Below are positions 1,437-63,604 of a stretch of DNA of 64,000 nt, one piece after another; positions within the stretch are counted from its first letter, which is position 1; each line of letters begins with the position of its first letter. The stretch lies in the IMG/VR virus record IMGVR_UViG_2061766007_000176; one strand, written 5' to 3'. The position numbers and the translations under genes are program-made. The notes under the pieces are model-generated. The model saw nothing but the letters and a program-made list of their open reading frames with translations, did not search any database and was not told the origin of the DNA. This stretch comes from an uncultured virus (IMG/VR IMGVR_UViG_2061766007_000176). Taxonomy: Duplodnaviria; Heunggongvirae; Uroviricota; Caudoviricetes.

Positions 1437-1874
1437 TTATTTGGTCAGACCCTTGAGAACCTTCACGATGTCGGCGGGTTCGTAAGCGTTCTCACCCCAA
1501 GCCTTGCGGTTTCCTTCTTCATCATCGAACAGGATGTATCCGTTGGTAGCGGTTTTCTTATTCGTTCCGTAGGGAACAACCTTGATTTCGTTCCACTTGA
1601 CGGCGGGAAGGTGCTTGGCGAGCCAAGCGACCTTGGCTTTGGCGACCGCCTTGTGATAGGCGGGATTGTCAACCTTGGCGGTCCAAGTGATGACATTCAC
1701 GGTATAGCCGTTCTTCTGAACCTTGTTCAGCAGGCGGGCGATGTGGGCGAGATTTCCGATACCCTTAGCGATTTCGTAGGGGCGGGTCTCGCCGTTGCGG
1801 ATGGCGATCAGCCAATCAGCGACTCCGTAGAGGTCAGCGATTGTGCCATCCATGTCGAACCAGATACCCTTCAT
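1437..1874 (-). CDS. HAD-superfamily hydrolase (5'-nucleotidase-like)
   Basis: Motif I FDMDGT and C-terminal ILFDD; paralog of 8899-9348. Confidence 0.8.
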   Translation of the reverse strand: MKGIWFDMDGTIADLYGVADWLIAIRNGETRPYEIAKGIGNLAHIARLLNKVQKNGYTVNVITWTAKVDNPAYHKAVAKAKVAWLAKHLPAVKWNEIKVVPYGTNKKTATNGYILFDDEEGNRKAWGENAYEPADIVKVLKGLTK

Positions 1875-3683: not shown

Positions 3684-4154
3684 ATGACCACCTTCGACCG
3701 CGAAACCGCCCTGCGCCGGATGGCGCACGATTACAACGCGCTGAGCGCGTCCCATGTGTACGCTCTGGGCTTTGTCCACGCGCACGACCTGTATGTGGCT
3801 AAGCTGAGCTTCGCTGAGCTGAGCCGTTACTTCAAGCTCGACCGCGCGAGCCAGTCCCACGGCGGGATGCTGAAAATCCGCATCCGGATGACCGCCACCG
3901 CCAAAGCTGAGCTGAGCGCCAAAGCTGAGAAGCTCGGAGCTGAAACCCTGCTGACCCTCGACCCCAAGCACAACAAGGGCGAGAACTTCGAGCGGGAGCT
4001 GACCGAGCGGTGGACCGCTGAGACCTGGGTCAAGGACTCCATCCCCTTCAATGTGGCGGGTGACATTCGGGTGGATGGGATTGAGGTTCAGGTCAAGCTC
4101 GATGGGGCTGAGCTGACCAACGAAAAAATCCTCAGCAAGCTGATGGCTTGCTGA
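3684..4154 (+). CDS. Hypothetical protein, possible PD-(D/E)XK-like fold (family copy 1)
   Basis: KGENFERE...GDI...EVQVK; paralog of 5111 and 14187; own promoter TTGACG/TATAAT. Confidence 0.75.
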   Translation: MTTFDRETALRRMAHDYNALSASHVYALGFVHAHDLYVAKLSFAELSRYFKLDRASQSHGGMLKIRIRMTATAKAELSAKAEKLGAETLLTLDPKHNKGENFERELTERWTAETWVKDSIPFNVAGDIRVDGIEVQVKLDGAELTNEKILSKLMAC

Positions 4155-4947: not shown

Positions 4948-5110
4948 CCTTCGGGGGGGGGGGNNNNNNNNNNNNNNNNNNNNNNNNNNNNNCTGGCCGG
5001 CCCGCAAATGTTACGAAAGTGTTACGATTAGTTCATAAATTGTTAACTTGACGGATGTACCGGATAGGTGTATAATTAAGGCACAGAAAGGGAAAGGAAG
5101 GTACTCAAGA

Positions 5111-5557
5111 ATGACTCGCAACGAAATGATCGACCGCTACAACGCTCTCTCCGCCGCCACTGCTTACATCGTTGGCTTCGTCCTCAACGGACTCCTGTAC
5201 TACACCATGTCCGCCCACATTGCGGATCAGTTCCTCAAGTTTGACCACATGGCTTCCAAACGTGGCGGTTGGGCAAAGATCCGTGTTCGGCTCTCTTCCG
5301 CAGATCGCAAGGCTCTTGTGGAGTGCGGACAGGCGGTGCTGATCGGCACTGCGGATCTCCTCACCGATGCGAAGTACAACAAGGGCGAGTGCTTCGAACG
5401 GGTAATCACCGAATCCCTCACGGGCGAACAGTGGGTGAAGGACTCCGTTCCGTTCAATGTCGCAGGAGATATCACCCTCAACGGCGAACAAGTACAGATC
5501 AAGTTTGACGGGGCGGAACTCACCAACGAAAAACTCCTCATGCGGATCTCCGCATGA
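5111..5557 (+). CDS. Hypothetical protein (family copy 2)
   Basis: MTRNEMI...; near-identical to 14187-14630. Confidence 0.8.
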   Translation: MTRNEMIDRYNALSAATAYIVGFVLNGLLYYTMSAHIADQFLKFDHMASKRGGWAKIRVRLSSADRKALVECGQAVLIGTADLLTDAKYNKGECFERVITESLTGEQWVKDSVPFNVAGDITLNGEQVQIKFDGAELTNEKLLMRISA

Positions 5558-7611: not shown

Positions 7612-7969
7612 CCTCGCGCCGGCCCGCTGATTTAACAAAATCTTAACACTTTTGACCTTGTTTTGTAACATATTTATGGTATAATAATCATGTCGAAAGG
7701 GAAGGGCGAGCCGAGAGGCGGACTCGAACGAGAAACGAAAAAAAGTTTCAGAAACCCCTTGACAAACCCCACAAAGTGTGGTACAATAAAAATGTCGGAA
7801 GGGAAGAGCGACTTCCGAAAGAACAGTGGGCAACGGACTCGCTCCCCTCGCAGTCGCAAAGCGATGTTGCCCAACTGAACGAAAAAAATGCTTGACATTC
7901 CCCACAAAATGTGGTAGAATGAATATGAAAAGAGGAAGGACACCTCACAAACCAGAAAGGCAAAAGGCT

Positions 7970-8305
7970 ATGAAGAAAGCCACCATGAACACCATCCTGT
8001 CCCTCATTTCCACCATCGACACTCCCGAAGCGGATGCTGTTCGGGCTGAGCTGAACGCTGAGCTGAACAAGGGCGAAGCTGTGAAAGCTGAGAACGCCAA
8101 GCTGTACGACTCCGCCAAGTCCATCGTGATGGACGAGCTGGGCAAGGCGACCGAAGCTGTGACCATCGGCGAGCTGTACGATGCCGTTGCGGATGCTCTG
8201 CCCGAAGGGTTCACGAAGGGCAAGCTCCAGTACGCTGTGACTCGCCTGTGGACTTCCGAGATTACTCGGATTGAGGGCAAGGTCAACTCCTATCGCAAGG
8301 CTTAA
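7970..8305 (+). CDS. Putative winged-helix DNA-binding protein (copy 1)
   Basis: VTIGELY...TKGKLQYAVTRLW...EGKVNSY; paralogs at 13096 and 15733. Confidence 0.7.
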   Translation: MKKATMNTILSLISTIDTPEADAVRAELNAELNKGEAVKAENAKLYDSAKSIVMDELGKATEAVTIGELYDAVADALPEGFTKGKLQYAVTRLWTSEITRIEGKVNSYRKA

Positions 8306-8449
8306 TGCCTTGCGACCCTCGGGGGGGGGGGGGNNNNNNNNNNNNNNNNNNNNNNCACTAACTCGCGGGCCGGCCCGCCATGTATTATTTGGGAAAAAAC
8401 TTTGCCATATTACTAATTGTTTTTCGCCAAATATCTGATATAATATAAT

Positions 8450-8898: not shown

Positions 8899-9348
8899 AT
8901 GAGAACGATTTGGTTTGACATGGATGGAACGATTGCGAATCTGTACGGAGTTGAAAATTGGCTTCCGAAACTGCGGGCACATGATGCTTCGCCTTACGCT
9001 GATGCTGAGGTGATGCTGAACATGAGCCAGCTGGCTCGGTTGCTGAACCGCTTACAGGTCATGGGATACAAGCTGGGCATCATCAGCTGGCTCAGCAAGT
9101 GCCCCACTCCAGAGTATGACGAAGCTGTGAAACAGGCTAAGCTGGGCTGGCTGGGTCAGCATCTGGCGAGTGTGAGCTGGGACGAGGTTCGGATTGTCAA
9201 GCATGGAGTCCCCAAGGAGCTGTTCATGAAGTCGGAGGACGACATTCTCTTCGATGACGAGGAACTGAACAGAGATAACTGGCTCGGAGATGCCTACGAA
9301 CCCGACATGATTATCAAGGTACTGAAACATCTGCTTGGAATCTATTAA
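8899..9348 (+). CDS. HAD-superfamily hydrolase (copy 2)
   Basis: FDMDGT and ILFDD motifs. Confidence 0.8.
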   Translation: MRTIWFDMDGTIANLYGVENWLPKLRAHDASPYADAEVMLNMSQLARLLNRLQVMGYKLGIISWLSKCPTPEYDEAVKQAKLGWLGQHLASVSWDEVRIVKHGVPKELFMKSEDDILFDDEELNRDNWLGDAYEPDMIIKVLKHLLGIY

Positions 9349-10473: not shown

Positions 10474-11292
10474 TTATAACAGCGAATAACTCCAAATAAA
10501 CCCATAGGCTTTGGCTTGTGCCGAAGCCTTTTTTGCGAGATATTCTTTCTAATATCCAGTTTGTCGTGATGCTTCTGCAACACTAGGATATACTTTAACC
10601 AACTAATTATCTAAAGTATATTGATATAGTTCTTTATGAAAACCACGCTTGGCGCCTTTGGGTGCGATAGTCTCCAACTATTCTATAGACCATTGAAAGC
10701 CGCCAGCAGATTGTCGCTCACCCTATAAACAATGTGTTATATTACTATGTGGTATGCCGGTCGCTCTTTCAGCATCAGATAAACTTTTATATGTAGCAAT
10801 ATACTTACCATTTAAATCATATTGTGATATAGATTTCTATAAATACTCGCCAGCGGATCTTTGTATTCTTTCTTCCGCAGTTGTGCCAAAAGCATTTAAA
10901 GCATTACGTATTGCGGTTTCTCCATATCCAGTAATGTCGTGTATTTTCTACATATTATGACCAGCATACCATAAATCATATACTAATTGTCTGTCAGTAG
11001 TAATAGTACCTTCACCACCGTAAGTCTCATTATATCCATTCTTATAAGTATCATACAACTATATATAATACTTTTCCTTTTCTTTTGCTTCTTCAAATGT
11101 TAAACCATCTTCAAGTATTTCGGAAGTAAAATAATTAAAGCCATATTTTTCTATAGCTTTTCCAAAAGCAAATCCATCATTTACATATTTAATACCATTC
11201 TTGCCGGCCCGAAAATAGAGAGAATTACAAGTAATTCCAACATATTTTTTATTATTTTCTCCTGTATAACAGTAGACTTTCCAATCATTCAT
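10474..11292 (-). CDS. GIY-YIG homing endonuclease with NUMOD1-like repeats (TAG=Gln, 272 aa)
   Basis: KVYCY...KYVGIT, NGYNETYGG, QYDLNGKYIATYKS; 7 in-frame TAG, ends TAA; AT-rich insertion. Confidence 0.85.
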
Positions 11293-13095: not shown

Positions 13096-13428
13096 ATGAA
13101 GAAATCCACTCTGACCGCTATCGTTGCTCTGCTGAATGGCGAAACCGTTGACACCGAGGCTCTGAAAGTCGAAGTCGAAACCGAACTGAACAAGGGCGCG
13201 GAGAAAGCCCAGGCTAATCGCGACCTGTATGCGTCTGCCCACGATGTGGTGATTGACGCTCTGTCCAAGGTTACCTCTCCTGTGACCATTGGCGAACTGT
13301 ATGACGAAATCGCCAATGACCTCCCCGAGGGCATGACCAAGGGTAAGGTTCAGTATGCGGTGACTCGCCTGTGGGTAGACGAGATTGCCAAGACCGAGGG
13401 TAAGGTTAACACCTACTCCCTGCGGTAA
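13096..13428 (+). CDS. Putative winged-helix protein (copy 2)
   Basis: Paralog of 7970-8305. Confidence 0.75.
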   Translation: MKKSTLTAIVALLNGETVDTEALKVEVETELNKGAEKAQANRDLYASAHDVVIDALSKVTSPVTIGELYDEIANDLPEGMTKGKVQYAVTRLWVDEIAKTEGKVNTYSLR

Positions 13429-14186: not shown

Positions 14187-14630
14187 ATGACACGCAACGA
14201 AATGATCGCCCGCTACAACGCACTGTCCGCCGCCACCGCCTACATCATCGGCTTTGTCCTCAACGGCATGATCTACTACACCATGTCCGCCCACATCGCA
14301 GACGAGTTCCTCAAGTTCGATCGGATGTCCTCCAAGCGGGGCGGTTGGGCAAAGATCCGCGTGAAGCTCAGCTCCGCCGATCGGAAAGCTCTGGTCGAGC
14401 TTGGCAAAGCGGTTCTCCTCGGATCAGCTGAACTGCTTCTCGATGAGAAGTACAACAAGGGCGAGTGCTTCGAACGGGTCATCACCGAAACCCTTACGGG
14501 CGAAACTTGGGTGAAAGATTCCGTCCCCTTCAATGTAGCGGGTGACATCACGCTGAACGGTGAGCAGGTGCAGATCAAATTCGACGGGGCAGAACTCACC
14601 AATGAAAGAACTCTCATGCGGATCGCATGA
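14187..14630 (+). CDS. Hypothetical protein (family copy 3)
   Basis: Near-identical to 5111-5557. Confidence 0.8.
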   Translation: MTRNEMIARYNALSAATAYIIGFVLNGMIYYTMSAHIADEFLKFDRMSSKRGGWAKIRVKLSSADRKALVELGKAVLLGSAELLLDEKYNKGECFERVITETLTGETWVKDSVPFNVAGDITLNGEQVQIKFDGAELTNERTLMRIA

Positions 14631-15632: not shown

Positions 15633-15732
15633 GCGGGNNNNNNNNNNAACCCTTGACAACCACCCCAAAATCTGATATAATAAATACGAACAAAGGGAAC
15701 GACACCCTACAAACGAGAAAGGATTCACCACC

Positions 15733-16062
15733 ATGAAGAAAGCCACTTTCGAAGCCATCAAGACCGCTCTGACCAACTTCGGCTATACCGATACTGATGT
15801 CCTCGCCGAACTCGACAAGGAAATCAACAAGGGTGCCGAGCAGAAGGCGAAGAACGCCGAAGCCTACGATGCCATCCATGACATCGTGATGGGTGCCCTG
15901 ACCTCTGCTCCTGCGACTGTCGCGGAGATTTGGGAAGCCATCGAGAATGAAGTTCCCGAAGGCATCACCAAGGGCAAGGTTCAGTATGCCCTGACCCACC
16001 TCTGGGGCGATGAAATCGTCAAGGTGGAAGGCAAGCCGAATGGCTATCGGAAAGCGGTCTAA
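15733..16062 (+). CDS. Putative winged-helix protein (copy 3)
   Basis: TKGKVQYALTHLW...EGKPNGY. Confidence 0.75.
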   Translation: MKKATFEAIKTALTNFGYTDTDVLAELDKEINKGAEQKAKNAEAYDAIHDIVMGALTSAPATVAEIWEAIENEVPEGITKGKVQYALTHLWGDEIVKVEGKPNGYRKAV

Positions 16063-16134
16063 TCCGCTTTCCCCTCACCACGAGGGTTTCCGAGGGTCTT
16101 TCAGTGTGGTTAAACAACATAAGCCCTCCTTTAT

Positions 16135-16237
16135 GGGACGAAATGATGACAGTGGCAAGTCATCCGCCGAAGCGAAAGCAATAGCGATAGGTGTGCAAAA
16201 TGCCTATGGATGGGTTCAATTCCCACTCGTTCCACCA
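16135..16237 (+). ncRNA. tRNA-like RNA with alanine identity (G3.U70, A73, encoded CCA) and a non-canonical core
   Basis: Acceptor GGGACGA/TCGTTCC plus ACCA; T-arm GGG-TTCAATT-CCC; 6-bp D-like stem; two central arms with no canonical anticodon loop. Confidence 0.65.
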
Positions 16238-16238
16238 T

Positions 16239-16311
16239 ACCCCACTAGCTTAATTGGTAGAGCAACTGACTCTTAATCAGTAGGTTCAGGGTTCAAGTCC
16301 CTGGTGGAGTA
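16239..16311 (+). tRNA. tRNA-Lys(CTT)
   Basis: Cloverleaf: ACTGA-CTCTTAA-TCAGT anticodon arm, CAGGG-TTCAAGT-CCCTG T arm; one acceptor mismatch; CCA not encoded. Confidence 0.9.
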
Positions 16312-16527
16312 CACATCCCCTATTCCCTTCTTTCCTTTCTAGCCCTGCCTTACGGCAGGGCGCTTTCTTTATTCACATACTTTAATCCGCTAAAGCGGGC
16401 CGGTATATTCGTGCCGGCCCGCCAGTTGTACGTACAAATTTTCAAAATTTTAATTTCAAAATTTACTTGACAAAAATCAAATTTTAGATTATACTATATA
16501 TGTAATAAGAAAGGAATGGTGATTGAG

Positions 16528-26409: not shown

Positions 26410-26484
26410 ATTTTAAAAATTTTTGGGACTAAATATAATGATTTTATTGTTTCATAATCACCTAATGATATGGAGGTGATGAAT

Positions 26485-27165
26485 ATGATTGGTATTTATA
26501 AAATTGAAAATCAATTAAATCATCATATTTATATAGGACAAAGTACAAATATTTAGAGTAGATGGACAAATCATAAGTGGAATTATAAAGCAAATAAAAC
26601 TGATACTACTTTATATAAAGCTTTTCAAAAATATGGCATTGATAATTTTTCTTTTTCTATAATAGAAATATGCAAAGAAGAAGAATTAGATGAAAAAGAA
26701 ATTTATTGGATAAGTTATTATGATAGTTATAATAATGGTTATAATGAAACACCAGGAGGTCAATTAGGAAAGCCAAGACCAATAGTACAATATGATTTAA
26801 ATGGAAATAAAATTGCCACATATGCCAATAGTCGAATTGCGGCTGGTTTATTAAATTTAGCTTATGGAAATTTAACTACCTGTTGTCAAGGAAAACAAAA
26901 AAGTTATGGTGGTTATTTATGGACTTATGAAGGAGAGCCAGCCCCAGAACCATATGTTGATAATCGTATTGGGCATAAAACAAGTTCATCTAAAAGAATT
27001 ATTCAGTAGTATTCTAAACAAAATGAATTTATAAAAGAATATGAATCAGCGCATGAAGCGGCTCGACAAATAAATAAACCAACTTGTGCTAATCATATTA
27101 CTGAATGTTGTCAAGGAAAAAGAAAAACTTGTGAAGGATATATATGGAAATATAAGGAGAATTAA
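26485..27165 (+). CDS. GIY-YIG endonuclease with two NUMOD1-like repeats (TAG=Gln)
   Basis: MIGIYKI...IYIGQSTNI*SRW; PIVQYDLNG aligns with IIQ*YSKQN. Confidence 0.9.
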
Positions 27166-34811: not shown

Positions 34812-37800
34812 ATGGTTATGGCGTTACATACGTATAATAAGACGACATGGAAGGTCGGCGATCCAATTACGCAAGAGTTAATGAATCATATTGAAACTGG
34901 TATTAAAGATGCTTATACCGATATATCAACAATTGATTCAACTGTTGGAACCCATATCACCGCTATTAGTGAGATAAATGGAACTTTAAGTGGTATAGAT
35001 AGTGATATTGATAGACTAGAACGTGATGTAGCTAATATTGGTGTATATGGTAAAGAAGGCGATGCGGCCTGGAACCAAGTTGCTGCTGTAGTTCAAATAG
35101 CAAGTGGTACTGTGGAACAAGGTAATTTAGTTTACACTAAAACCTTAAAACAAATTATAGATACAATTGATGCTAAGGCTGGTAGTACTGCTAACGAAGT
35201 TTCTGCCGCGCGTAAGGGACAATCGACTTTAGCCGATAAGATAGATGCGATAGATACTACACTTACTAGCTTATCTGGTGGTATCACTACTATTAATGAT
35301 AAATTCGCTTCTGCTAAAGTTAGTCCTTATTATGGTGATCGTAATTCTATAGATCAACGTTTATCGGAAGAAGAAGCAAGAACCAGAGATGTAATTACTG
35401 AAGTATCTAATGCTCATGAATCTACTACATTTAATAAGATTAATGAGAATAAATATGCTTCATTAGATGATCGTTTTGAAGCTGATGAAGTTCGTATTCA
35501 AAATATATAGACTGAATTAGCTAATGCTCACGAATCCACTGCTTTAAGTAGAACTGGAATTAGTGCTTTCGGATCTATTGATGCGCGTTTTGAAGCAATT
35601 GAAGAAGAATTGGTCGGTACAAATGCTATTAGTTCTCGTATTGATACATTAGCTGGTGATGTTAGCGATTTATCTACTAACAAAATTAATACTTCAGCTA
35701 TCGCAAATAATCTAACTACTGATACTGCTGGAAAAGTATTAGATGCTCGTCAAGGTAAAGCATTAAATGATGCTAAAATTAATTATACTGATATAATTGA
35801 TGATGTAACTCATACTGATACTGATAAACCATTAAGCGCCAATCAAGGTAAAGTATTAAAAGATGCTATTGATACTATCAGTAGCGGATTAAATACAGCT
35901 GAAACTGGATTAGTAGCAAGAGTTAGTGCGCTAGAAACTGAAGTAGATATGACCTCTGCTAGTAGTCGTATTGATAGTGCCTTATCACGTCTAGATGCGA
36001 TTGATGATAGTAGCACTGGCGCGATTAAGGGTATTAATGATAAGATCGATACTATCGCGGGTGAACTTGGTATGACCGATACTAATGGCTTAAAAACATT
36101 AGGTACTCGTGTTGATGAATTAGAAGGTAATATTGAAACCGTAGCTACTGAATTAGGTATGGTTCAGAGCGGTGAAATCGTTAATACTAATACACGTATT
36201 GATACATTAGATGCCACTATTAATGATGCTTCTACTGGTTTAGCAGCAACAAAGGCTATTGCTGACGCGGCCGCGACCGCAAGCGATCTAACTGCTTTAG
36301 CTGGTCGTGTTACTACATTAGAAAATAATCCACAATCTTCTACATTAGTTGTAGAACAAGTAACATACAATAATGATGGTATTCCTACTAATATAAGTAG
36401 TCCTTCCGCTGATATTGATTATCTATTAAAGAAAGATAATGATTATTACTATTGGAAATATATTAATAATACTTGGAAACTTATTAGTGGAGGCGGCGGA
36501 AGTGGGACTTCTTCTGCTGAGTTCTATTCTACTTTACCTATTACTGGTGAAGAAACAGTTGATTACTTTATTGGATCTGGTACTAATTATATTCACTATC
36601 GTTATTTAAATAATACATGGGTACAAATTCTACCAGAAGGACTTATCAATAATGTATCTGTTGATACCTCTTCAATTACTGTTGGAGAAGGTGCTAGTGC
36701 TATTACTACAAATAAGAGCAGACCAATTATTACAGCTATTGGTAGTGAAACTAACTTATTAGCTGGTTTTAATGCTATTCAATCTTTCACCGCTGAAGCA
36801 CTTCAAGATAATGCTGGATATAAATTAACTTGGGTTAATATAGATGGCGAATCTAATGATATTACTATTACGGGTGGCGGCGGATCAGCATCCGCGGCAA
36901 ATGCGACTATTACCCGTATTACTGATGGTAATATTACAACCATTACAGGAGAACCATGTAATATTAGTTTTAAATATATCGCTACTGAAGCAGACGGATC
37001 TCTCGCGGCAACAACAGCAACTGCTACATGGTATGTTAATAGAGTGCGCGTTGCGACATCTCCTGTTACTATAAATCAACCTAATGATGAACAAGTTCCA
37101 TCAACATTAACTGATTATAATACATTTAATATTGCTTCTTATTTACAAACTGGTGTAAATAGTATTACATTAAGTGTTAGTATTGTTCTTGATGATGAAA
37201 CAATTACTCGCACTAAAACATGGTCTGTTGATGTTAAAAATTTCTCATTAGAATGGGAATATGATGAAAGTACTGTTAATAGTGATGATAATATTGTATT
37301 CTCTTGTGTCCCATATGGTATTGATCTTACAAAGACACTATATTTAAAAGTGGGCGCGAATACACAAACTCAAACTGTTACAACAAGTGGTATTCCTACA
37401 ACTGTAACATTAGCTAATAATTTTAATCATGGTGTGTATACTGCGGAGATGTGGATGACAGCTACAATTAATGGTTAGTTAAAAGAAACTACTCCTCATA
37501 TTTTCCATGATTTTCTTGTAGTTGAGGCAGGTAATACTGCTCCGATTATTGCTGCGACTTTACCAGCCACTACTATTAATCAATATGATACTATTACTAT
37601 TCCATTTGTAGTTTATAATCCAACATCCACGACTTCAACCATTACTTTATCAGAGGGTGTAACAGTAGTAGATACGCGCGAAAATATAGGAAGAACAACT
37701 CAAAGATGGTATTATACTCCTATGACTTCCGGCGCGAAAACATTAACAATTACTTGTGGTACATCTACTAAAACATTAAATCTCACTGTTAATAGTGTAA

Positions 37801-40800
37801 ATATTAATAATGAAGAAATTGGTGGATATGCTTTTAAACTAAAGGCTAGTGAATTACCAAGTAATAATGCTTTATAGAATTGGTATTATGGTAATCCAAA
37901 TACAACTAAACTACAATTCTCTAATAATTTTGACTGGATTAATGGTGGTATTCAGACTGAATTGGATGAAAATAATCAAATTCGTCAATATATTCGTATT
38001 AAATCCGGTACAACGATGACAATTCCATATAAGATGTTCGCAACTGATCCTCGTAGTAATGGCGCGAATTTCAAAATTATTTTTAAAGTAGATAACTGTC
38101 GTGATTATGATGCTAATGTATTATCTAACATGGATCAAATTACTAATGAAAATGAAGACTTAATAGATAATATTGGTATTAAAATCAATGCTCATAATGC
38201 TATATTTAAATCCACAACTACTGAAATTAAGACCCAGTATGGTGAAGATGAATATACTGAACTTGAATTTGAAGTATATAAGGCAACTGATAATCAAGGT
38301 AATGAAGTTGCTGGATAGTATATGATGGCATGGATTGATGGTGTTATGACAACCGCGCGCAAATATGGCGGTAACTTTGTATAGGATGACAATAATCGTA
38401 AAGACATCGTTATTGGATCTATGGCTTGTGATATTTGTATTTATTTAATTAAATATTATGCGAAAGCATTAACTCGTAATGATCATATTACAAACTTTAT
38501 TGCCGATGCTCCAAATGCCGCAGAAATGGTTGCGCGTTATAATAGAAATGATATTTTAGACGCCGATGGAGAAATTAGTTATGAAAAACTTGCTCATAAC
38601 AATCGTGATTGTCGTGTTTGGTTATATGATATTTCTCGTATGACTAAGGCAAAAGACGATTCCGTTGATGTTTATAATTTCCAACAAATTTGGGAAAATG
38701 GTGATGATTATTATCAATTACAAGGTACTAATGCGAAAATGAAGATTCAGGGTACATCTTCTGTTAACTATCGTTATGGTGCGGCAAATACTGATATTGA
38801 TTTTGGTAAAAAGAAAGCACCAAATGCTACATTAGTAGATGGACGCGGAAATAATCTATTAGATGATAATCTTGAATATCCTGGATTTAAAATTAATGAT
38901 AACTCTTTACCAATTACATATTCAAATACAAAAGTTAACTTTGCTTCTTGTGAACAAGTTAATAATATGTGTAATGCTGAGTGGTATCAACGTTATCAAC
39001 CATTCCCAAGCTTATCCGCGCGTGACTGTATGGAATTCGCGATGGGCGTTCAATTTATTAAAGACAGACATGAAAGTGAACCATCTGATGGTATTCCTCT
39101 ATTTACAGAAAAAACCAATTTCAATTCTGAAAAATACTATATGTATTCTATCGCAAATATGGGAACTTCCAAAAAGAATACTCATATTTTCCACTCTGAA
39201 GATGAATGCTGTATTGAAATTAAAGAAAATACATCTAATGCTCAAAAAATGAAATCTTTCGACAGTGCCTGGACCGATAATGATGCGAATGTTTAGAACT
39301 ATGAAATGCGTTATCCAGACGTTAAGAATACTAAAGTTCCAAATGATATTAGAGATGGTTGGGCACGTTTTGTACAGTGGATGGTCGCTAATGATCCTAA
39401 TGCAGCAACCGACGCAGTGTTAGACAGTGCAGTAACATTTGCACCTTATACATTCCGTGGTCATAATCGTACTGTTACAGAAACTGAAGGGCGTAACTTT
39501 AAATAGGTATTACGTGGAGTTACAGTATCTTAGTATGCTGGCACTTATGATCATGATACATTCGAATATCGTATGGCAAAAATGCTATCAGAATGTGAAG
39601 ATTATATGGCAATGGACTCTATTATTTACCATTTCTGCTTTATCGAGCGTCATACAATGGTTGATAATGTAGCTAAAAATACATTCTGGTCTTCTTTAAA
39701 AGAAGTTGGCGGTCCAAATGATGAAGAAGGATACTGGATCTGGGATTTAAGTAAAAACTATGATAATGATACTTCTGATGGTAATAATAATAATGGCCTA
39801 TTAGTATTTGATTATGGTAACGAGGCAACCGATACTCGTGAAGGCACTCCAGTCTTTAATGGTAGTGACGCAGTTTGGTTCGTATTCGCAAGTAATCTAT
39901 ATGAAGCTTGCCGCGCGATGTTCATAGATCGTGAAGCAATAGGTGCTTGGAATAGTACTAATTATCATAATTACTTAACTACTGAACAGAAGAAAGTACC
40001 AGAACGTGTATGGAATGAATGTTATTGGTATGATTACTTACGTACTTATGAAGCAGCAGTAGCTGATCCAGAGAATGAAAATCTTGATCCACTCTGGATT
40101 GGTTTCCTCGATGGCGGTCAAAAGATACATCAACGTAATCATTATGAAACATATGAAGAAATTTACGATTCTTCTAAATATAGAGGCGGTTTTGCTCATA
40201 ATCAAGCAGTTGTTCTCCGTGGTGAGGCAATTGATTATTAGACATTAGGACTACCCGCGCAAGAAAGTAAATTTACTATCACGATGTTTAATAAATGTTA
40301 TTTAACAATTTGGATCGGTACAAACTATCAGACAGTTAAATGTCAGAAGGGCGTTCCTGTTACATTATATTTCTATGAAGATAATGATCCAAACCAAGGC
40401 TATATGTCACTTTCTAACTCTGTTATTGAAATTGACTCTGGATCAATGATTCAAACAATTGGTGACTTATCACTAATTTATCCAAGTAGCGGTCAATTTG
40501 CACCAGCAAAGAGATTACGTTCATTACAAATTGGTTCAGATGTTGCAGGATATTATAATCCTAATATGAATACTAATACAGTATTAACATTCAATAATAG
40601 AATGCTAGAGTACTTATATGTATAGAATCTACCACAAGCAACTTATGATCTAGATTTAAGAAATTGTCCAGAATTAAAGTATATTAATGCGGCTGGTTCT
40701 GGTTTTACTGGTTTCACATTTGCTAATGGCGGATTATTAAATGAAGCATATATTAATGCTCCTACAAGCTTAATTATGCGTAATCTTGACTATTTAACTA

Positions 40801-43316
40801 ATGCTAATTTCCATCTTGCTACTCCAACAGCAGTAACTTCATTACGTTTAGAAGGATGTAAGTTATTTAATAACTATACTTTCATTAATCAATTAACTAA
40901 CTTAAATGTATTACGCTTAACTAATATTAATTGGTCATTAGATAATAATACATTATTAGATAGATTACTTAATCTAATGGGTATTGATGAATCTGGATAT
41001 ACAGTGTCTCAATCTTATTTAGCTGGTAATGTTGAATTAATCGGTACTGTATATGGTGGAGATTATAATGATTATCTAAGCGCTTGGAGTCCTGACTTAG
41101 TAATTGATGTTTCTCACGCAAGTCAATTTATTGCTTAGCATTTAGTATCATATTATGATGAAGACGGTACACTTTTAATGAGTAAATACATCAATCATGG
41201 TAATAATATTGTTGATATTGTTAATACTCAAGAATTAGCAACTCCAACTAAAGCAGCAGATATCCAATATCAATATATTTTTGGTAGCTTACAATATAGT
41301 TAGTATTTACCATATTCTGGTTGGCGCCTTTCTTCTGATTCTCAATCTATTAGAGAAACTTACGGCGCGAATCCGAATGTTCCTGTTAATGGAGATACTA
41401 GTGTATATGCTGTTTATACTACTACACCATAGCAATATGTTGTGCGCTGGGTTGTTGGCAATAAGATAATCACAACCACTGAGCCACAAAATTATGGTGG
41501 CGGTTATAACTTATCTGCTCCAACTATTAAAGATGTACAAAACGCGGGCGCTAGCACTTGCTCCTTTACTGATAACGGTAATGGTACTTGTAGTTATCGT
41601 ATCATGACAGGTTGGGAAAAATTACCTACTAATATTTCTCCTACAAGCGCAACCGGTCCATATGATATTAATGCGACTTGGTTAGAGCGCACAAATGTTA
41701 ACTGTAATACAGTATTAACTAGTAATGAGTATAGTGTAGAAGAAAAATTGTTAGTGCTGAAAAATATTTAGAGTATGAGAGCTAATCTCGAAATATAGGA
41801 TGTATTCCCAGTAACCCTAGGTTATGATGGTATTAAACCAGGAATTACATTATTAGCTTCGCCAAAGCGTTATACTGGTACAGCGGATGCTCCAATTACA
41901 ACTTACAGTCCATTTAGCGCGGATAAGAGTTTTACATTAGCAATCGATTATCGTTTTGAACACGTTGTTAATGATTCAGCAAATGAAGCTGTATTAATGT
42001 CCTGTTATAATGATTCTGAAGGTAGTATTCAAGGATTTAAACTTTTCTATAATCCAAGATCTACTAATAGTAATCCTGTACCTCAAATTAGTTTTGGTAG
42101 TACAGCAACAATTAGTGATACAAATGTATATACTATTGGTTCTACTATTAATAATCGTGGCATGCTTGTATTAAGACACATTGCTGGAGAACCAATGTTA
42201 TATGTGTATTCTGGTTCTAATACAGGTGGATTAATTACAGAATATGATGCTAATACTTTCCGTAAAGTATTAACAATTGAGAATTTTGTAGCATCCAATG
42301 CGAAGATTATTCTCGGTGGTATTAATTCCAGTAGTTCTTCTTCTGCTAATGCCAGCGGTACAATTTATTCTGTTAAATATTGGGAAGAAGATTTAGGTAA
42401 TGGTGAATGTATGTAGTTAGCTAATTGGTGTCATGAAACAATGAACTTTGCGGTTCAAGATTTTACTGAAACAGCTGCGCATAGCGCATTACCAATTCAA
42501 AATACCAATATTATACTTCATACATTAAATGCTTCATAGATGGGTACTATCACAGACGCATTAATTGATACTTCTACAGAATCTTCTGTTGGTTGGGATC
42601 CTTCTACTATTAGAACATTCTATAATAATCGTCTATATAATGCTTTACCAATTAAATTATAGAGTATTATGGCGCCAGTAGCAATTAAGCATGTAAAGGC
42701 TCCTAAAGGAGATGCGGGTTATAGTATTGGTAACAATGACTCTACAACACTTGATTATGTATTCGCACCAAGCTATCGTGAAATTGGTATGTAGGCTGGT
42801 GATAATGAGAATTATCTAAATGAATCTTCTGGTAAGTTTGTTTGGTCTGGATTAAAGATTCTATAGTATTCTAATGGACAATTTGTTCAGTAGTCCAATG
42901 CTAATTATATTAATATCAGATTCCCATATCAACCAATAATTATTAATAGTAATACTAAAGTTTTCTTAGATTATCCGTCTACTAGCGGTAGTTTTGAATC
43001 ATATGCTAGCAATCAAGCTTTAGGATTAAGAACCGGTGATATATTAATTCCTAGCAATCATGCTGCAGCTTATATTTATATTAGTGGTACTGATGTAATT
43101 AATGGTGCGCCATTCTCATTAAATACTGCTAATTATTTAACTACTTCAACAGGTGCCTGGATTGAATCTACTTCTTGGTGGACTCGTTCTGTTTCAACAG
43201 GCACGATGGCTGGACGTAATAATTCTAGATTTATTTCTATTAATAATATTGGCACAGCACAATCTGGTACATCTAATATTAGAACTAATGGCATTGTTTA
43301 TTCAATAGCACTATAA
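34812..43316 (+). CDS. Giant virion/tail protein, 2,834 aa (TAG=Gln)
   Basis: Ten ORF-track fragments share one frame, broken only by about 20 TAG; coiled-coil N-terminus, beta-rich middle, CotH-like segment, LRR-like segment, WWTRS near the C-terminus. Confidence 0.85.
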
Positions 43317-62891: not shown

Positions 62892-62986
62892 TACTTGACA
62901 TTTTATTAAATTTCAAGTATAATATAAGTAGAATATGAGGGTAAGGAACCTCATTTCTAAATAAAATTTCATAACATAGGGAGGTT

Positions 62987-63337
62987 ATGATTATGGCTAT
63001 TCGTGTTTATTCGGATAAAACCAAACAGTTCTATAACACAGTGGAGGAAGCAAACCGCGCTGAGTTTGAACTAAAAGAGAAAGAGAATCTTGAAAAGATT
63101 CAGAAAGAGCGCGAGCTTGCACTCGCAAAAGAAAAGAAGGAAAAGGCGCTAGCAGAACGTAAGGCCGCTGCTGAAAAGGTAGAAGCCGCACGTAAAGCAT
63201 TCAATGAAGCGAGAAAAGCATATCATGCTGAACTTGAAACCTTCTGTAAGAAGTACGGCACTTATCATTATACCACTGATGGTAAAGATGATGTTCCATC
63301 TCTATTCGATCTCTTTGATAACATTTTCAAGTTCTAA
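62987..63337 (+). CDS. Coiled-coil hypothetical protein
   Basis: SigA promoter at 62895-62923; no TAG. Confidence 0.8.
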   Translation: MIMAIRVYSDKTKQFYNTVEEANRAEFELKEKENLEKIQKERELALAKEKKEKALAERKAAAEKVEAARKAFNEARKAYHAELETFCKKYGTYHYTTDGKDDVPSLFDLFDNIFKF

Positions 63338-63366: not shown

Positions 63367-63459
63367 AGCCCCTTAGTTCAACGGTAGAACACCGGTCTCT
63401 AAAACCGTTATATCCCTCTGAAGGAGGTAGTCAGGGTTCGAATCCCTGAGGGGCCGCCA
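63367..63459 (+). tRNA. Amber suppressor tRNA (anticodon CTA), probably Gln
   Basis: D arm GTTC/GAAC; CGGT-CTCTAAA-ACCG anticodon arm; CAGGG-TTCGAAT-CCCTG T arm; G73 plus CCA. Confidence 0.9.
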
Positions 63460-63533: not shown

Positions 63534-63604
63534 GCGCTTATCGTATAAAAGTAGTATACCGTCCTTCCAAGTCGGTGGTGCGGTGGCAGAATCCGCTAGG
63601 CGCT
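63534..63604 (+). tRNA. Atypical tRNA-Gly(TCC)
   Basis: Acceptor GCGCTTA/TAGGCGC, U73, loop CTTCCAA; D-loop GG and T-loop TTC missing. Confidence 0.65.

What the first reader, a model, noticed from the sequence alone, without database searches (positions are those of the whole stretch)
16135..16237. Alanine-identity tRNA mimic with a rearranged core
Seen: a 7-bp acceptor with G3.U70, A73 and encoded CCA, a T arm, and a 6-bp D-like stem (GATGAC/GTCATC). Next comes an extra GAAA-capped arm, then an ATAGGTG/TGCCTAT arm whose loop begins TGC (the Ala anticodon) out of register. It abuts tRNA-Lys. Known: G3.U70 is the main determinant for AlaRS charging, as in tmRNA. Inference: a chargeable RNA that may not decode, such as a decoy for anticodon nucleases, a mini-tmRNA-like factor, or an Ala donor.
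Basis: partly seen in the sequence, partly recalled or inferred. Interest (0 to 1): 0.7.

Follow-up and report, generated by a model that had tools for sequence, protein, structure and literature searches.

The report
Anticodon-less alanine tRNA mimic in phage
A large cattle-rumen phage carries a small, conserved gene for a tRNA-shaped RNA that keeps every signal for being loaded with alanine but has no anticodon, so it most likely acts as a decoy in the host's translation or ribosome-rescue machinery rather than reading codons.

Summary
Window 16135-16237 (+) folds into a 7-bp acceptor stem with G3:U70, A73 and an encoded CCA. It also has a 6-bp D arm, a T arm and two extra hairpins, and ends 1 nt before tRNA-Lys(CUU). 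It is one of 29 distinct sequences of a family found in related large, TAG-recoding rumen phages. G1-C72, G2-C71, G3:U70, A73 and CCA are invariant in all 29, while acceptor pairs 4-7, the D stem and the extra arms change by compensated substitutions. No member has a 7-nt anticodon loop. ARAGORN and the Rfam tRNA model do not call it. The Rfam tmRNA model matches only weakly (18.1 bits, cut-off 47). One relative carries a normal tRNA-Ala(UGC) as well, so this is not a decaying tRNA-Ala. The closest known thing is the "TLD-only" tmRNA of mycobacteriophage DS6A, and a similar molecule is reported to inhibit tmRNA. This family differs from it by a true D stem, mostly 8/4 acceptor/T geometry and extra arms. 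The likely role is an AlaRS-chargeable, non-decoding competitor, for example against trans-translation. That role is inferred, not shown. I rate it a new variant of a known kind.

The parts
15653..15681 (+). Sigma-70-type promoter (TTGACA, 17 nt, TATAAT, with TG) that starts the small operon holding the element
   Evidence: Consensus scan, 12 of 12 hexamer matches. This is a consensus match only; function was not tested.
15733..16062 (+). 109-aa ORF of unknown function (weak DUF6958 match), first gene of the operon. Its homologues were used to fetch related loci.
   Evidence: ORF list. Pfam DUF6958 scores 23.3 bits, below the cut-off of 27. Homologues of 57-94% identity occur in 88 loci. PHROGs and PDB gave nothing.
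16078..16128 (+). Conserved ~50-nt leader motif (CCACGAGG...TTCAGTGTGGTTAAACAAC...AAGCCCTC) that ends 6 nt before the element
   Evidence: Found in 44 places in the loci scanned, a few nt upstream of Ala-like elements, of ordinary tRNA 5' ends, or of neither. The hairpin has modest support: 3 pairs with changes on both sides and 83.5% of cells paired in that helix. The other helix is invariant. Role unknown.
16135..16141 (+). Acceptor stem, 5' strand GGGACGA (G1, G2, G3)
   Evidence: Pairs with 16227-16233. Positions 1-3 are invariant and positions 4-7 covary across the family.
16145..16164 (+). D arm: 6-bp stem GATGAC/GTCATC with loop AGTGGCAA, which contains GG
   Evidence: Minimum-energy fold. 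In relatives the D stem is paired in 100% of cells, with 3 of 5 pairs showing changes on both sides. RNAalifold predicts it independently.
16165..16186 (+). Arm 2, in the anticodon-arm position: CGC/GCG base, 4x4 internal loop, GC/GC, GAAA tetraloop
   Evidence: The homologous arm in 19 long relatives has a C-GNAA-G cap (C-G closing pair in 19 of 19) and covarying distal pairs: AU 9 / GC 8 and UA 14 / CG 5.
16187..16207 (+). Arm 3, in the variable-arm or tmRNA-P2 position: ATAGGTGT/ATGCCTAT with loop GCAAA
   Evidence: The basal stem ATAGG/CCTAT recurs in L247 and is replaced by GTGGG/CCCAC in L001. The loop motif YGCAAA is conserved.
16211..16225 (+). T arm: TGGG / TTCAATT / CCCA
   Evidence: The T loop is TTCRANT in the 8/4 clade. 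The only difference from L069 is A to G at the purine position of the loop.
16227..16237 (+). Acceptor 3' strand TCGTTCC (U70 at 16229), discriminator A73 (16234), encoded CCA (16235-16237)
   Evidence: A73 and CCA are present in 15 of 15 members and in all 19 long forms. The phage's ordinary tRNAs (tRNA-Lys here, tRNA-Ala in G001) do not encode CCA.
16239..16312 (+). tRNA-Lys(CUU), an ordinary tRNA in the same transcription unit
   Evidence: ARAGORN. Rfam tRNA 66.9 bits.
16342..16371 (+). Intrinsic-terminator-like hairpin GCCCTGCC-TTAC-GGCAGGGC plus a T-rich tail, closing the unit
   Evidence: Consensus scan. In relatives without the tRNA-Lys, a similar terminator follows the CCA directly.

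Best explanation
Window 16135-16237 is a real phage gene for a small, stable, tRNA-shaped RNA. It is not a decoding tRNA and not a decayed tRNA.

Shown: it belongs to a conserved family of 29 distinct sequences. Every member keeps the full alanine acceptor identity (G1-C72, G2-C71, G3.U70, A73), an encoded CCA, a D arm with a GG-containing loop, and a T arm. Together these give a tRNA-like acceptor/T stack of 12 bp (8/4 or 7/5) and an elbow. The anticodon region is replaced by one to three hairpins with GNRA-type caps.

Shown by consensus scans only: in the window it sits in a short early operon of promoter, small ORF, leader motif, this RNA, tRNA-Lys(CUU) and terminator.

Inferred: it is cut out by the host's tRNA-processing enzymes, charged with alanine by host AlaRS, and bound by factors that read only the upper half of a tRNA, but it cannot read a codon.

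Most likely mechanism (inferred, about 1 in 3): it works like the TLD-only tmRNA of mycobacteriophage DS6A. It would compete with host tmRNA for SmpB, EF-Tu or stalled ribosomes. That would blunt trans-translation tagging while the phage expresses late genes full of in-frame TAG codons.

The broader claim, a chargeable non-decoding competitor or decoy in an Ala-tRNA or tmRNA pathway, is what the confidence figure refers to.
For: - **Fold and detection.** The fold is better than all 200 shuffles. A model built without the window finds it at 37.6 bits.
- **Acceptor identity.** Across 15 distinct members, pairs 1:72, 2:71 and 3:70 are GC, GC and GU in 15 of 15, with A73 and CCA in 15 of 15. Pairs 4-7 take 3-4 different Watson-Crick types each, giving 10 distinct acceptor stems. 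In the 19 long forms G3:U70 is 19 of 19. L280 has it too.
- **Covariation.** In 8 sequences, 150 of 150 cells are paired, 9 of 20 pairs change on both sides, and 0 of 500 shuffles reach the observed pairing or covariation score. Slid controls pair in 43-60% of cells. RNAalifold on 19 sequences independently gives an 8-bp acceptor, 5-bp D stem, GNRA-capped arm and 4-bp T stem, with 9 of 20 pairs compensatory.
- **No anticodon loop.** None appears in any fold. ARAGORN calls none of the elements scanned. The Rfam tRNA model gives no reported hit, and tmRNA is the best model in the tRNA clan: 18.1 bits for the window and 19.6 for L009.
- **Not a substitute for tRNA-Ala.** Relative G001 has this RNA and also a normal tRNA-Ala(tgc) among 23 tRNAs.
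- **Independent gene.** It has its own TTGACA/TATAAT promoter in L009 and L280 and a terminator right after the CCA in several relatives.
[quoted passage not shown] I located that DS6A element at L223:28478-28560, tmRNA 43.2 bits. Four more TLD-only-like RNAs turned up in unrelated viral contigs.
- **AlaRS determinant.** G3:U70 is described as the main AlaRS determinant, and 8/4 tRNAs with G3:U70 insert Ala in E. coli (passage of PMC5389517).
- **TAG recoding in the window.** A 2834-aa ORF contains 21 in-frame TAG codons, and the window has a CTA suppressor tRNA.
Against: - Charging, processing, and SmpB or EF-Tu binding were not tested.
- The tmRNA model score (18.1) is far below the cut-off (47) and below DS6A (43.2). 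The D region is a real stem supported by covariation, whereas tmRNA has no D stem and SmpB occupies the D-stem/anticodon-stem space. Arm 2 of the long forms might therefore clash with SmpB bound in the tmRNA manner (structural knowledge recalled, not tested).
- The body differs greatly between members (83 to 119 nt, one to three hairpins). This argues that only the upper half matters and leaves the target open.
- The window subtype is known from only two sequences, identical at 102 of 103 positions (window and L069). It has A.C where 21 other 8/4 members have G8-C, which may be a slight weakening.
- The model R1 does not find the 7/5-clade members L004, L008, L009 and L032. The unity of the two clades therefore rests on shared ends, on position and on one weak hit (L031, 22.1 bits).
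- One covariation measure, further pair types, was not above the shuffles (98 of 500).
- The RNA is absent from a 98%-complete relative (G004) and from 67 of 83 informative loci at this site, so it is dispensable.
- No phage SmpB, RF-1-domain protein or tmRNA was found in five relatives.
- The link to TAG recoding is my inference alone.
Confidence: 0.55

Rival explanations
1. It is a non-ribosomal alanine donor or an AlaRS-directed RNA. Once charged, it would feed alanine to an aminoacyl-tRNA-dependent transferase (cell-wall cross-bridge or lipid aminoacylation enzymes of Firmicutes), or it would simply bind or titrate AlaRS. This would parallel the non-proteinogenic tRNA-Gly of staphylococci (recalled knowledge).
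For: The full alanine identity and CCA are invariant while the body is free to vary. That fits users that read only the acceptor end. The absence of an anticodon would keep the RNA out of translation. The lysis genes suggest a Firmicutes-type host: NlpC/P60 plus SH3, SpoIID and an LLH holin.
Against: No transferase of that kind (Fem, MurM, MprF-like) appeared in the Pfam scan of 93 window ORFs. There is no precedent in phages. The conserved D and T elbow is not needed by enzymes that accept minihelices (recalled knowledge).
Confidence: 0.13
2. It is a decoy or sponge against a host defence that attacks tRNAs, such as toxins that modify or cut the acceptor or CCA end, or nucleases that recognise the tRNA elbow. 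It would be deployed next to a phage tRNA-Lys that could itself replace a cleaved host tRNA.
For: The distribution is accessory and patchy: 16 of 83 informative loci, and absent from a 98%-complete relative. It is placed early, behind a consensus promoter, and is adjacent to tRNA-Lys in the window, L010, L015 and L018. Phage tRNAs as counter-defence are an established theme (recalled knowledge).
Against: There is no anticodon loop, so it cannot mimic the substrate of anticodon nucleases. A generic acceptor-end decoy would not need G3.U70 to be invariant in 29 of 29 members. Most members are not next to tRNA-Lys.
Confidence: 0.12
3. It is a processing or stability element. A tRNA-shaped structure would serve only as an RNase P / RNase Z punctuation mark or as a protective 3' end for the upstream mRNA, with no role for aminoacylation.
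For: It lies between an ORF and a tRNA, or right before terminators. The 12-bp acceptor/T stack is what RNase P measures (PMC4919913 seen in a search listing only; otherwise recalled). A conserved leader motif precedes it and also precedes ordinary tRNAs.
Against: It stands alone with its own promoter in L009 and L280, with no ORF to process. A wobble G3.U70, A73 and CCA kept in 29 of 29 members while pairs 4-7 drift is not explained by processing alone. The phage's ordinary tRNAs do without an encoded CCA.
Confidence: 0.1
4. It is a working but unorthodox decoding tRNA, for example an 8/4 'allo-tRNA' with alanine identity whose arm 3 loop (YGCAAA, containing UGC) reads GCN or another codon.
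For: 8/4 and 9/3 tRNAs with G3:U70 exist and insert alanine in E. coli, and 8/4 tRNAs occur in phages and rumen Clostridia (PMC5389517 passages). The relatives have 8/4 geometry: G8-C in 19 of 19 and a 4-bp T stem. The loop motif with UGC is conserved.
Against: The loops are 4-6 nt and closed by pairs (GCAA, GCAAA, GCAAAA). The 83-nt forms have GTAAA and L046/L261 have ATGA instead. The arm sits in the variable-arm position, directly before the T arm. ARAGORN and the Rfam tRNA model do not accept any member. G001 already has a normal tRNA-Ala(UGC).
Confidence: 0.06
5. It is a decaying tRNA-Ala or tmRNA pseudogene, or a phage attachment-site fragment of such a gene.
For: The window subtype has an A.C at the eighth pair and a 4-bp T stem. 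A canonical tRNA-Ala(ggc) with the same unusual T arm as the 7/5 clade exists (L270), so descent from tRNA-Ala is plausible. Many uncalled matches in the broad viral scan lack a 5' partner and look like 3' fragments.
Against: Both strands of every helix are present and change in a compensated way: 150 of 150 cells paired, and 9 pairs with changes on both sides. There are 29 distinct, intact variants across many contigs. Some have their own promoters and terminators.
Confidence: 0.03

Closest known systems
TLD-only (CDS-less) tmRNA of mycobacteriophage DS6A, with similar CDS-less tmRNAs reported in some plastids
   Same: It is a phage-encoded small RNA of about 80-120 nt with a G3:U70 acceptor stem and T arm, and with no anticodon and no tag reading frame. 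The tmRNA model is the best-scoring model of the tRNA clan for it. The reported activity of a similar molecule, inhibition of tmRNA perhaps by titrating SmpB, is the best available functional lead (passages).
   Different: The DS6A element (L223:28478-28560) scores 43.2 bits on Rfam tmRNA and has the tmRNA-type unpaired D-loop plus one closed P2 hairpin. The window element scores 18.1 bits, has a covariation-supported D stem, usually 8/4 geometry, and one to three GNRA-capped arms. DS6A ends in ACUA in the genome, while this family always encodes ACCA. No sequence similarity was detectable by blastn.
tmRNA (Rfam RF00023)
   Same: Alanine-identity acceptor stem, A73, CCA and T arm. The 5' region aligns loosely to the tmRNA D-loop consensus.
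   Different: It has no mRNA-like domain, resume codon, tag or pseudoknots, and is 103 nt against about 350. It scores below the gathering score. It has a D stem instead of an open D-loop.
tRNA-Ala
   Same: Complete acceptor identity set, D arm with GG and a T arm. The 7/5 clade shares its unusual T arm (GTGGG-TGCGACT-CCCAT) with a canonical phage tRNA-Ala(ggc), L270, which suggests descent from tRNA-Ala.
   Different: It has no anticodon stem-loop, has extra arms and always encodes CCA, which the phage's normal tRNAs lack. It is not called by ARAGORN or Rfam tRNA.
allo-tRNAs with an 8/4 acceptor/T branch and G3:U70 (Mukai et al. 2017, PMC5389517)
   Same: A 12-bp branch split 8/4, G3:U70, a long arm before the T arm, and occurrence in phages and rumen Clostridia.
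   Different: allo-tRNAs have anticodon arms and decode. This family has a GNRA-capped hairpin there. In the window itself the eighth pair is A.C.
Small stable non-tRNA RNAs in the phage T4 tRNA cluster (recalled from memory, not checked here)
   Same: Non-decoding small RNAs encoded and processed among phage tRNA genes.
   Different: I made no sequence or structure comparison, and I do not know of alanine identity being claimed for them.

Membership tests
tRNA (RF00005) / tRNA-Ala | Cloverleaf accepted by tRNA detectors, with a 5-bp anticodon stem and a 7-nt anticodon loop | tested here: not met
   ARAGORN gives no call on the window element or on relatives. Rfam tRNA reports no hit at E<=10 in 401 nt. 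The folds show tetra- to hexaloops only.
tRNA (RF00005) / tRNA-Ala | Alanine identity set: G3:U70, A73, G1-C72, G2-C71 | tested here: met
   15 of 15, 19 of 19 long forms and L280.
tRNA (RF00005) / tRNA-Ala | Aminoacylation by AlaRS | not testable with these tools
   Needs an in vitro or in vivo charging assay.
tmRNA (RF00023) | Score at or above the Rfam gathering threshold (47 bits) | tested here: not met
   18.1 bits for the window and 19.6 bits for L009. Other members gave no hit at E<=1.
tmRNA (RF00023) | mRNA-like domain with resume codon, tag reading frame and pseudoknots | tested here: not met
   Only 37 nt lie where the model has 300 positions. ARAGORN finds no tmRNA or tag. I saw no resume codon or stop by eye.
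tmRNA (RF00023) | Open D-loop without a stem, followed by a long-range P2 helix | tested here: not met
   A local D stem is paired in 100% of cells, with 3 pairs changed on both sides. RNAalifold predicts it independently. The tmRNA-style P2 alignment contains several non-standard pairs.
TLD-only / CDS-less tmRNA (DS6A type) | Short RNA made of acceptor stem, T arm, tmRNA-type D-loop and one closed P2 hairpin, scoring near the tmRNA threshold | tested here: inconclusive
   DS6A scores 43.2 bits. Look-alikes L137, L153, L168 and L146 score 61.0, 46.2, 43.3 and 33.8. The window scores 18.1. The 83-nt members (L033, L034) share the topology but have a D stem.
TLD-only / CDS-less tmRNA (DS6A type) | Inhibits tmRNA function / binds SmpB | not testable with these tools
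   Known only from passages citing Mao et al. 2009. That paper is not held.
allo-tRNA (8/4) | 12-bp acceptor branch split into an 8-bp acceptor stem and a 4-bp T stem | tested here: inconclusive
   Met in relatives: G8-C in 19 of 19 and a 4-bp T stem in 19 of 19. In the window and L069 the eighth pair is A.C. Five members are 7/5.
allo-tRNA (8/4) | Anticodon arm that decodes | tested here: not met
   See the tRNA row.
Bacterial Y RNA / YrlA | Ro-binding stem formed by the 5' and 3' ends, with an internal tRNA-like module | tested here: not met
   No Rfam hit to any Y RNA family at E<=10. Here the ends form an acceptor stem with a free ACCA tail.

The most novel reading that the evidence does not exclude
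These RNAs are a distinct, previously undescribed class of phage-encoded, AlaRS-charged, anticodon-less tRNA mimics. RNA arms fill the space that SmpB fills on tmRNA. They enter or block stalled host ribosomes, or sequester SmpB or EF-Tu, and so switch off trans-translation tagging. This would protect late proteins whose genes are full of in-frame TAG codons during the window when host RF1 and the phage suppressor tRNA compete. The DS6A-type TLD-only RNAs found in unrelated viral contigs would be a second, convergent solution to the same problem.
Probability: 0.25. Interest if true: 0.85.

Novelty: new variant of a known kind. Interest (0 to 1): 0.68.

Why it matters
If the RNA is charged and acts on ribosome rescue, it would show that phages routinely deploy tRNA-shaped decoys against host translation quality control. 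So far the only support for that idea is one mycobacteriophage RNA and a 2009 experiment.

It would also give a natural, compact scaffold that AlaRS should recognise but ribosomes cannot decode. That is useful for studying AlaRS, EF-Tu, SmpB and RNase P recognition. It would provide a testable link between stop-codon recoding and trans-translation.

Even without the mechanism, the family is a clean new structured-RNA family: 29 variants, strong covariation and an invariant G.U pair. Current tRNA, tmRNA and Rfam annotation misses it. Together with the TLD-only look-alikes seen in a small sample of viral contigs, this suggests the class is under-counted in phage genomes.

Tried and rejected
- **Exact-match scans.** Scans of viral contigs with two stretches of the element found nothing. 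blastn against 50,697 phage records gave only T-arm-level matches to ordinary tRNAs, none covering 80% of the query. blastn of the L137 TLD-only RNA against phages found no match.
- **Searches not available.** The window's own genome is not held. Metagenome records cannot be searched whole, so I used the IMG/VR records instead.
- **Expression.** Contigs of four bovine metatranscriptome runs laid on 15700-16500 cover parts of the ORF and the tRNA-Lys, mostly from relatives or other organisms, but not 16135-16237. Contigs cannot show absence, so this gives no verdict.
- **Neighbouring proteins.** Pfam on 93 ORFs, PHROGs on 6 ORFs and a PDB profile search of the upstream ORF gave no AlaRS-, SmpB-, Fem- or RNA-binding-like lead.
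- **Rescue factors in relatives.** No SmpB, RF-1-domain protein or tmRNA was found in five relatives' records.
- **Tiny tag reading frame.** I read the body by eye and found no convincing resume codon plus stop, so I rejected this.
- **attP fragment.** Rejected because both acceptor strands are present and covary.
- **Intron-containing tRNA.** Rejected because no anticodon loop would remain after removing any arm.
- **Anticodon-nuclease decoy.** Judged unlikely for the same reason.
- **MAFFT alignments that include the window subtype.** These misalign the 5' end (A2, A6). I therefore made the pair counts on alignments without it (A4, A7) and tested the window by the covariance model instead.
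- **Bacterial and archaeal genomes.** A scan of 185,579 species genomes with the 8/4-type 3' end returned 35 loci. One is a family member (L280, in a 24-kb contig of an Acutalibacteraceae MAG), which is only a weak hint at the host. The rest are mostly Rokubacteria tRNA-Phe and its repeats.
- **Literature.** Five searches found no description of this family. Mao et al. 2009 is not held.
Full report
**1. What is there**

- a 7-bp acceptor stem GGGACGA/TCGTTCC with G3.U70, followed by A73 and an encoded CCA
- a 6-bp stem GATGAC/GTCATC around the loop AGTGGCAA
- a hairpin with a 4x4 internal loop and a GAAA cap
- a second hairpin
- a T arm TGGG-TTCAATT-CCCA

ViennaRNA gives exactly this five-helix shape as both the minimum-energy and the centroid structure. 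The energy is -34.9 kcal/mol, z = -3.07, and none of 200 dinucleotide shuffles folds as well.

tRNA-Lys(CUU) begins one base after the CCA.

There are three small corrections. The T stem has four clean pairs plus an A.C. The last hairpin is best read as 8 bp with a GCAAA loop. 'TGC' is therefore part of a loop cap, not a displaced anticodon.

**2. Context**

No whole genome is held for the window. The window is a phage.
- Bases 23.5-63 kb form a + strand block of tail-fibre, holin, NlpC/P60+SH3 and SpoIID-type genes.
- That block has GC of about 0.34 and many in-frame TAG codons. Reading TAG as sense opens a 2834-aa ORF with 21 such codons.
- A CTA suppressor tRNA lies at 63367-63459.
- The first 22 kb have GC of 0.39-0.52 and hold small ORFs, including paralogous cassettes.

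The element lies in a short unit in this early part. A perfect TTGACA-17-TATAAT promoter sits at 15653-15681. It is followed by a 109-aa ORF (15733-16062), a conserved leader motif (16078-16128), the element, tRNA-Lys, and a terminator-like hairpin at 16342-16361. The next promoter is at 16467-16495.

DNA runs that hold the stretch are bovine gut or rumen metagenomes.

**3. Relatives**

Homologues of the upstream ORF brought in 8 IMG/VR loci and 80 metagenome loci.

A script looked for a 7-bp acceptor, a T arm and CCA, followed by folding. It found the element's relatives just downstream of the ORF in 16 of 89 loci. In 67 loci with at least 330 nt of downstream sequence it is absent, and 6 loci are too short to tell. 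Some loci are the same contig held in two collections.

Two further pattern scans of viral contigs added 13 new distinct sequences in other genomic contexts. One scan of 185,579 species genomes added a single one, in a 24-kb contig of an Acutalibacteraceae MAG. The total is 29 distinct sequences.

They fall into two groups.
- **The '8/4' group** has 24 sequences of 83-119 nt, including the window. It has an 8-bp acceptor stem, a 4-bp T stem, the D loop ATCAGGGNA and the T loop TTCRANT.
- **The '7/5' group** has 5 sequences of 84-107 nt. It has a 5-6-bp D stem with a small loop and, in four of the five, the T loop TGCRACT.

The relatives are phages of about 130-180 kb with 11-27 tRNA matches each.

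**4. Evidence that it is a selected structure**
- In 15 distinct members, pairs 1:72, 2:71 and 3:70 are G-C, G-C and G.U without exception, and A73 and CCA are also invariant. Pairs 4 to 7 take three or four different Watson-Crick types each, giving 10 different acceptor stems.
- On an alignment of eight 8/4 members, all 150 cells of a 20-pair structure are paired. Nine pairs show changes on both sides. None of 500 shuffles reaches the observed pairing, double-change counts or covariation score. Sliding the partners drops pairing to 43-60%. One measure, further pair types, is not above the shuffles (98 of 500).
- RNAalifold on 19 long members predicts an 8-bp acceptor, a 5-bp D stem, the distal part of arm 2 with its tetraloop, and a 4-bp T stem, without any structure supplied by me. 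Nine of its 20 pairs are compensatory and G3:U70 is 19 of 19.
- A covariance model built from eight relatives finds the window element at 37.6 bits (E about 1e-5 in 366 kb) and its near-twin L069 at 34.1 bits. Neither was used to build the model. The model finds only one 7/5 member, weakly, and misses four.

A wobble pair held fixed while its neighbours drift is the signature of selection on the G.U itself. G3:U70 is described as the main AlaRS determinant (passage of PMC5389517).

**5. Evidence that it does not decode**
- No member has a 7-nt loop on a 5-bp stem.
- Arm 2, which follows the D arm directly as an anticodon arm would, ends in C-GNAA-G (GAAA, GCAA, GTAA or GGAA).
- Arm 3, just before the T arm, ends in GCAA, GCAAA or GCAAAA. 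The 83-nt forms have GTAAA and two members have ATGA.
- ARAGORN calls none of the elements scanned. Rfam's tRNA model reports nothing for them.
- Relative G001 carries the element once and also an ordinary tRNA-Ala(UGC) among its 23 tRNAs. That tRNA-Ala and the window's tRNA-Lys lack an encoded CCA, whereas every family member has one.
- The element is absent from a 98%-complete relative, so it is an accessory gene.
- In L009 and L280 it has its own consensus promoter. In several relatives a terminator follows the CCA at once.

It is therefore a gene in its own right, transcribed on the + strand.

**6. What it resembles**

In Rfam's tRNA clan the best model for the window is tmRNA. This is a global match with the 300-position middle deleted, at 18.1 bits against a gathering score of 47. 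L009 gives 19.6 bits, and other members gave nothing at E<=1.

The literature holds a direct precedent. Hudson, Lau and Williams list mycobacteriophage DS6A as 'TLD only'. [quoted passage not shown] A 2025 database paper repeats this and adds CDS-less tmRNAs of about 65 bp in some plastids (passages of PMC11915505). Mao et al. 2009 itself is not held.

I located the DS6A element, which is unannotated in its GenBank record, at L223:28478-28560. It scores 43.2 bits on tmRNA.

In the 80 loci fetched it gave 85 matches: 47 tRNAs (20 of them Ala), 12 tmRNAs and 26 uncalled. Four of the uncalled are 74-82-nt G3:U70 RNAs of the DS6A kind, scoring 61.0, 46.2, 43.3 and 33.8 bits on tmRNA. TLD-only RNAs are therefore not a DS6A oddity.

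The window's family is further from tmRNA than those are. It has a true, covarying D stem where tmRNA has an open loop, and it has extra arms. The 7/5 group shares its odd T arm with a canonical phage tRNA-Ala(GGC) (L270). This points to descent from tRNA-Ala rather than from tmRNA. The 8/4 geometry recalls the allo-tRNAs of Mukai et al. Some of those carry G3:U70 and insert alanine in E. coli, and they occur in phages and rumen Clostridia. However, those have anticodon arms.

**7. How it most likely works**

- *Shown:* a conserved, independently transcribable RNA gene with the shape of a tRNA's upper half, the alanine identity set, and no anticodon.
- *Inferred from established knowledge of tRNA processing and AlaRS recognition:* release by RNase P and 3' trimming, then charging with alanine.
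- *Inferred from the DS6A precedent and from the phage's biology:* competition with tmRNA for SmpB, EF-Tu or stalled ribosomes. This would reduce tagging and degradation of phage proteins when ribosomes pause at the many in-frame TAG codons of late genes.

I put about one chance in three on that specific mechanism. I put about 0.55 on the wider statement that it is a chargeable, non-decoding competitor in an Ala-tRNA or tmRNA pathway.

Several points count against the specific mechanism.
- The tmRNA score is weak.
- The D stem and arm 2 occupy the space that SmpB takes on tmRNA (recalled structural knowledge).
- The body is very variable.
- There is no phage SmpB, RF-1-domain protein or tmRNA in five relatives.
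- There is no expression or binding data.

The rivals are an alanine donor for a non-ribosomal transferase or an AlaRS sponge (0.13), a decoy for tRNA-targeting defences (0.12), a mere processing or stability element (0.10), an unorthodox decoding tRNA (0.06) and a pseudogene or attachment-site fragment (0.03).

**8. Novelty and verdict**

Five full-text searches found no description of this family, and Rfam 15 has no model for it. The kind of thing, a phage-encoded anticodon-less alanine-acceptor RNA, is known from DS6A. I therefore rate this a new variant of a known kind.

Interest is 0.68. This is a clean, strongly covarying, unannotated RNA family in recoded phages, and it makes an old, thinly studied idea directly testable: that phages interfere with trans-translation through tRNA-like decoys.

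Noticed in passing
window 23500-63400 (+), e.g. 34812-43316: The late-gene block has many in-frame TAG codons. Reading TAG as sense gives a 2834-aa tail-fibre-like ORF with 21 TAGs. GC is about 0.34 here against 0.39-0.52 in the first 22 kb. The phage appears to recode TAG in late genes only.
   Followed up: partly
window 63367-63459 (+): A 93-nt tRNA with anticodon CTA (an amber suppressor, which ARAGORN labels 'Pyl'). It has a long variable arm, G73, an A.C first pair and an encoded CCA, which makes it class II and Ser/Leu-like. TAG may therefore not be read as Gln here. Relative G001 has a similar one at L091:3076-3164.
   Followed up: partly
window 62928-62990 (+): A strong match to the Rfam cow-rumen-4 RNA (80.5 bits, cut-off 48.5), lying just upstream of the suppressor tRNA.
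   Followed up: no
window 63534-63604 (+): A third tRNA-like match found by Rfam only (35.8 bits). ARAGORN does not call it and its fold is poor.
   Followed up: no
window 16078-16128 (+); 44 places in the loci, e.g. L021:1762-1824, L070:868-930: A highly conserved ~50-nt motif (CCACGAGG...TTCAGYGTGGNTAAACAAC...AAGCCCTC) ends a few nt before the 5' end of Ala-like elements or of ordinary tRNA genes, and sometimes before neither. One hairpin shows some compensated changes and the rest is invariant in sequence. It could be a promoter, a processing signal or a structured leader. There is no Rfam match.
   Followed up: partly
L137:451-530(-), L153:393-474(+), L168:451-524(-), L146:395-474(+): Four 74-82-nt G3:U70 / ACCA RNAs in unrelated IMG/VR contigs look like TLD-only tmRNAs of the DS6A kind. 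They score 61.0, 46.2, 43.3 and 33.8 bits on Rfam tmRNA with the whole middle deleted. ARAGORN calls none of them.
   Followed up: partly
L223:28478-28560 (JN698994, phage DS6A): The published 'TLD only' tmRNA of DS6A is not annotated in the GenBank record. It lies between gp33 and gp34 and ends in ACUA rather than ACCA.
   Followed up: yes
L010:2188-2280 and L011:about 2362-2459: An odd 93-nt tRNA-like gene sits right after tRNA-Lys. It has a normal acceptor, D arm and T arm, but a 9-nt loop (ACCGATCAC / ACTGATCAC) on the anticodon stem and a long extra region. Rfam tRNA scores 27.1 bits, just under the cut-off.
   Followed up: no
L270:401-476(-): A canonical tRNA-Ala(GGC) has an unusual T loop, TGCGACT (G where the conserved U55 normally is), and a D loop without GG. 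Four of the five 7/5-type Ala-like RNAs have the same loop type (TGCRACT), and L009 has the identical T arm.
   Followed up: partly
window 7826-8302, 13096-13425, 15733-16059; 3684-4151, 5048-5554, 14187-14627; 1440-1874(-), 8899-9345: The early region holds repeated paralogous cassettes. There are three copies of the DUF6958-like ORF, three of a ~150-aa ORF ending ...FDGAELTNE..., and two NT5C-like nucleotidases. Masked N stretches, for example 8334-8355 just after one paralogue, prevent checking for more tRNA-like genes there.
   Followed up: no
window 10474-11292(-), 26470-27165(+): Two homing-endonuclease-like ORFs: NUMOD1 / I-HmuI-like, and GIY-YIG plus NUMOD.
   Followed up: no
L271-L305 (genome contigs): Rokubacteria / Methylomirabilota MAGs carry many copies of the 3' part of a tRNA-Phe gene without a 5' partner, beside intact tRNA-Phe genes. 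This may reflect repeated island integration or a mobile element.
   Followed up: no
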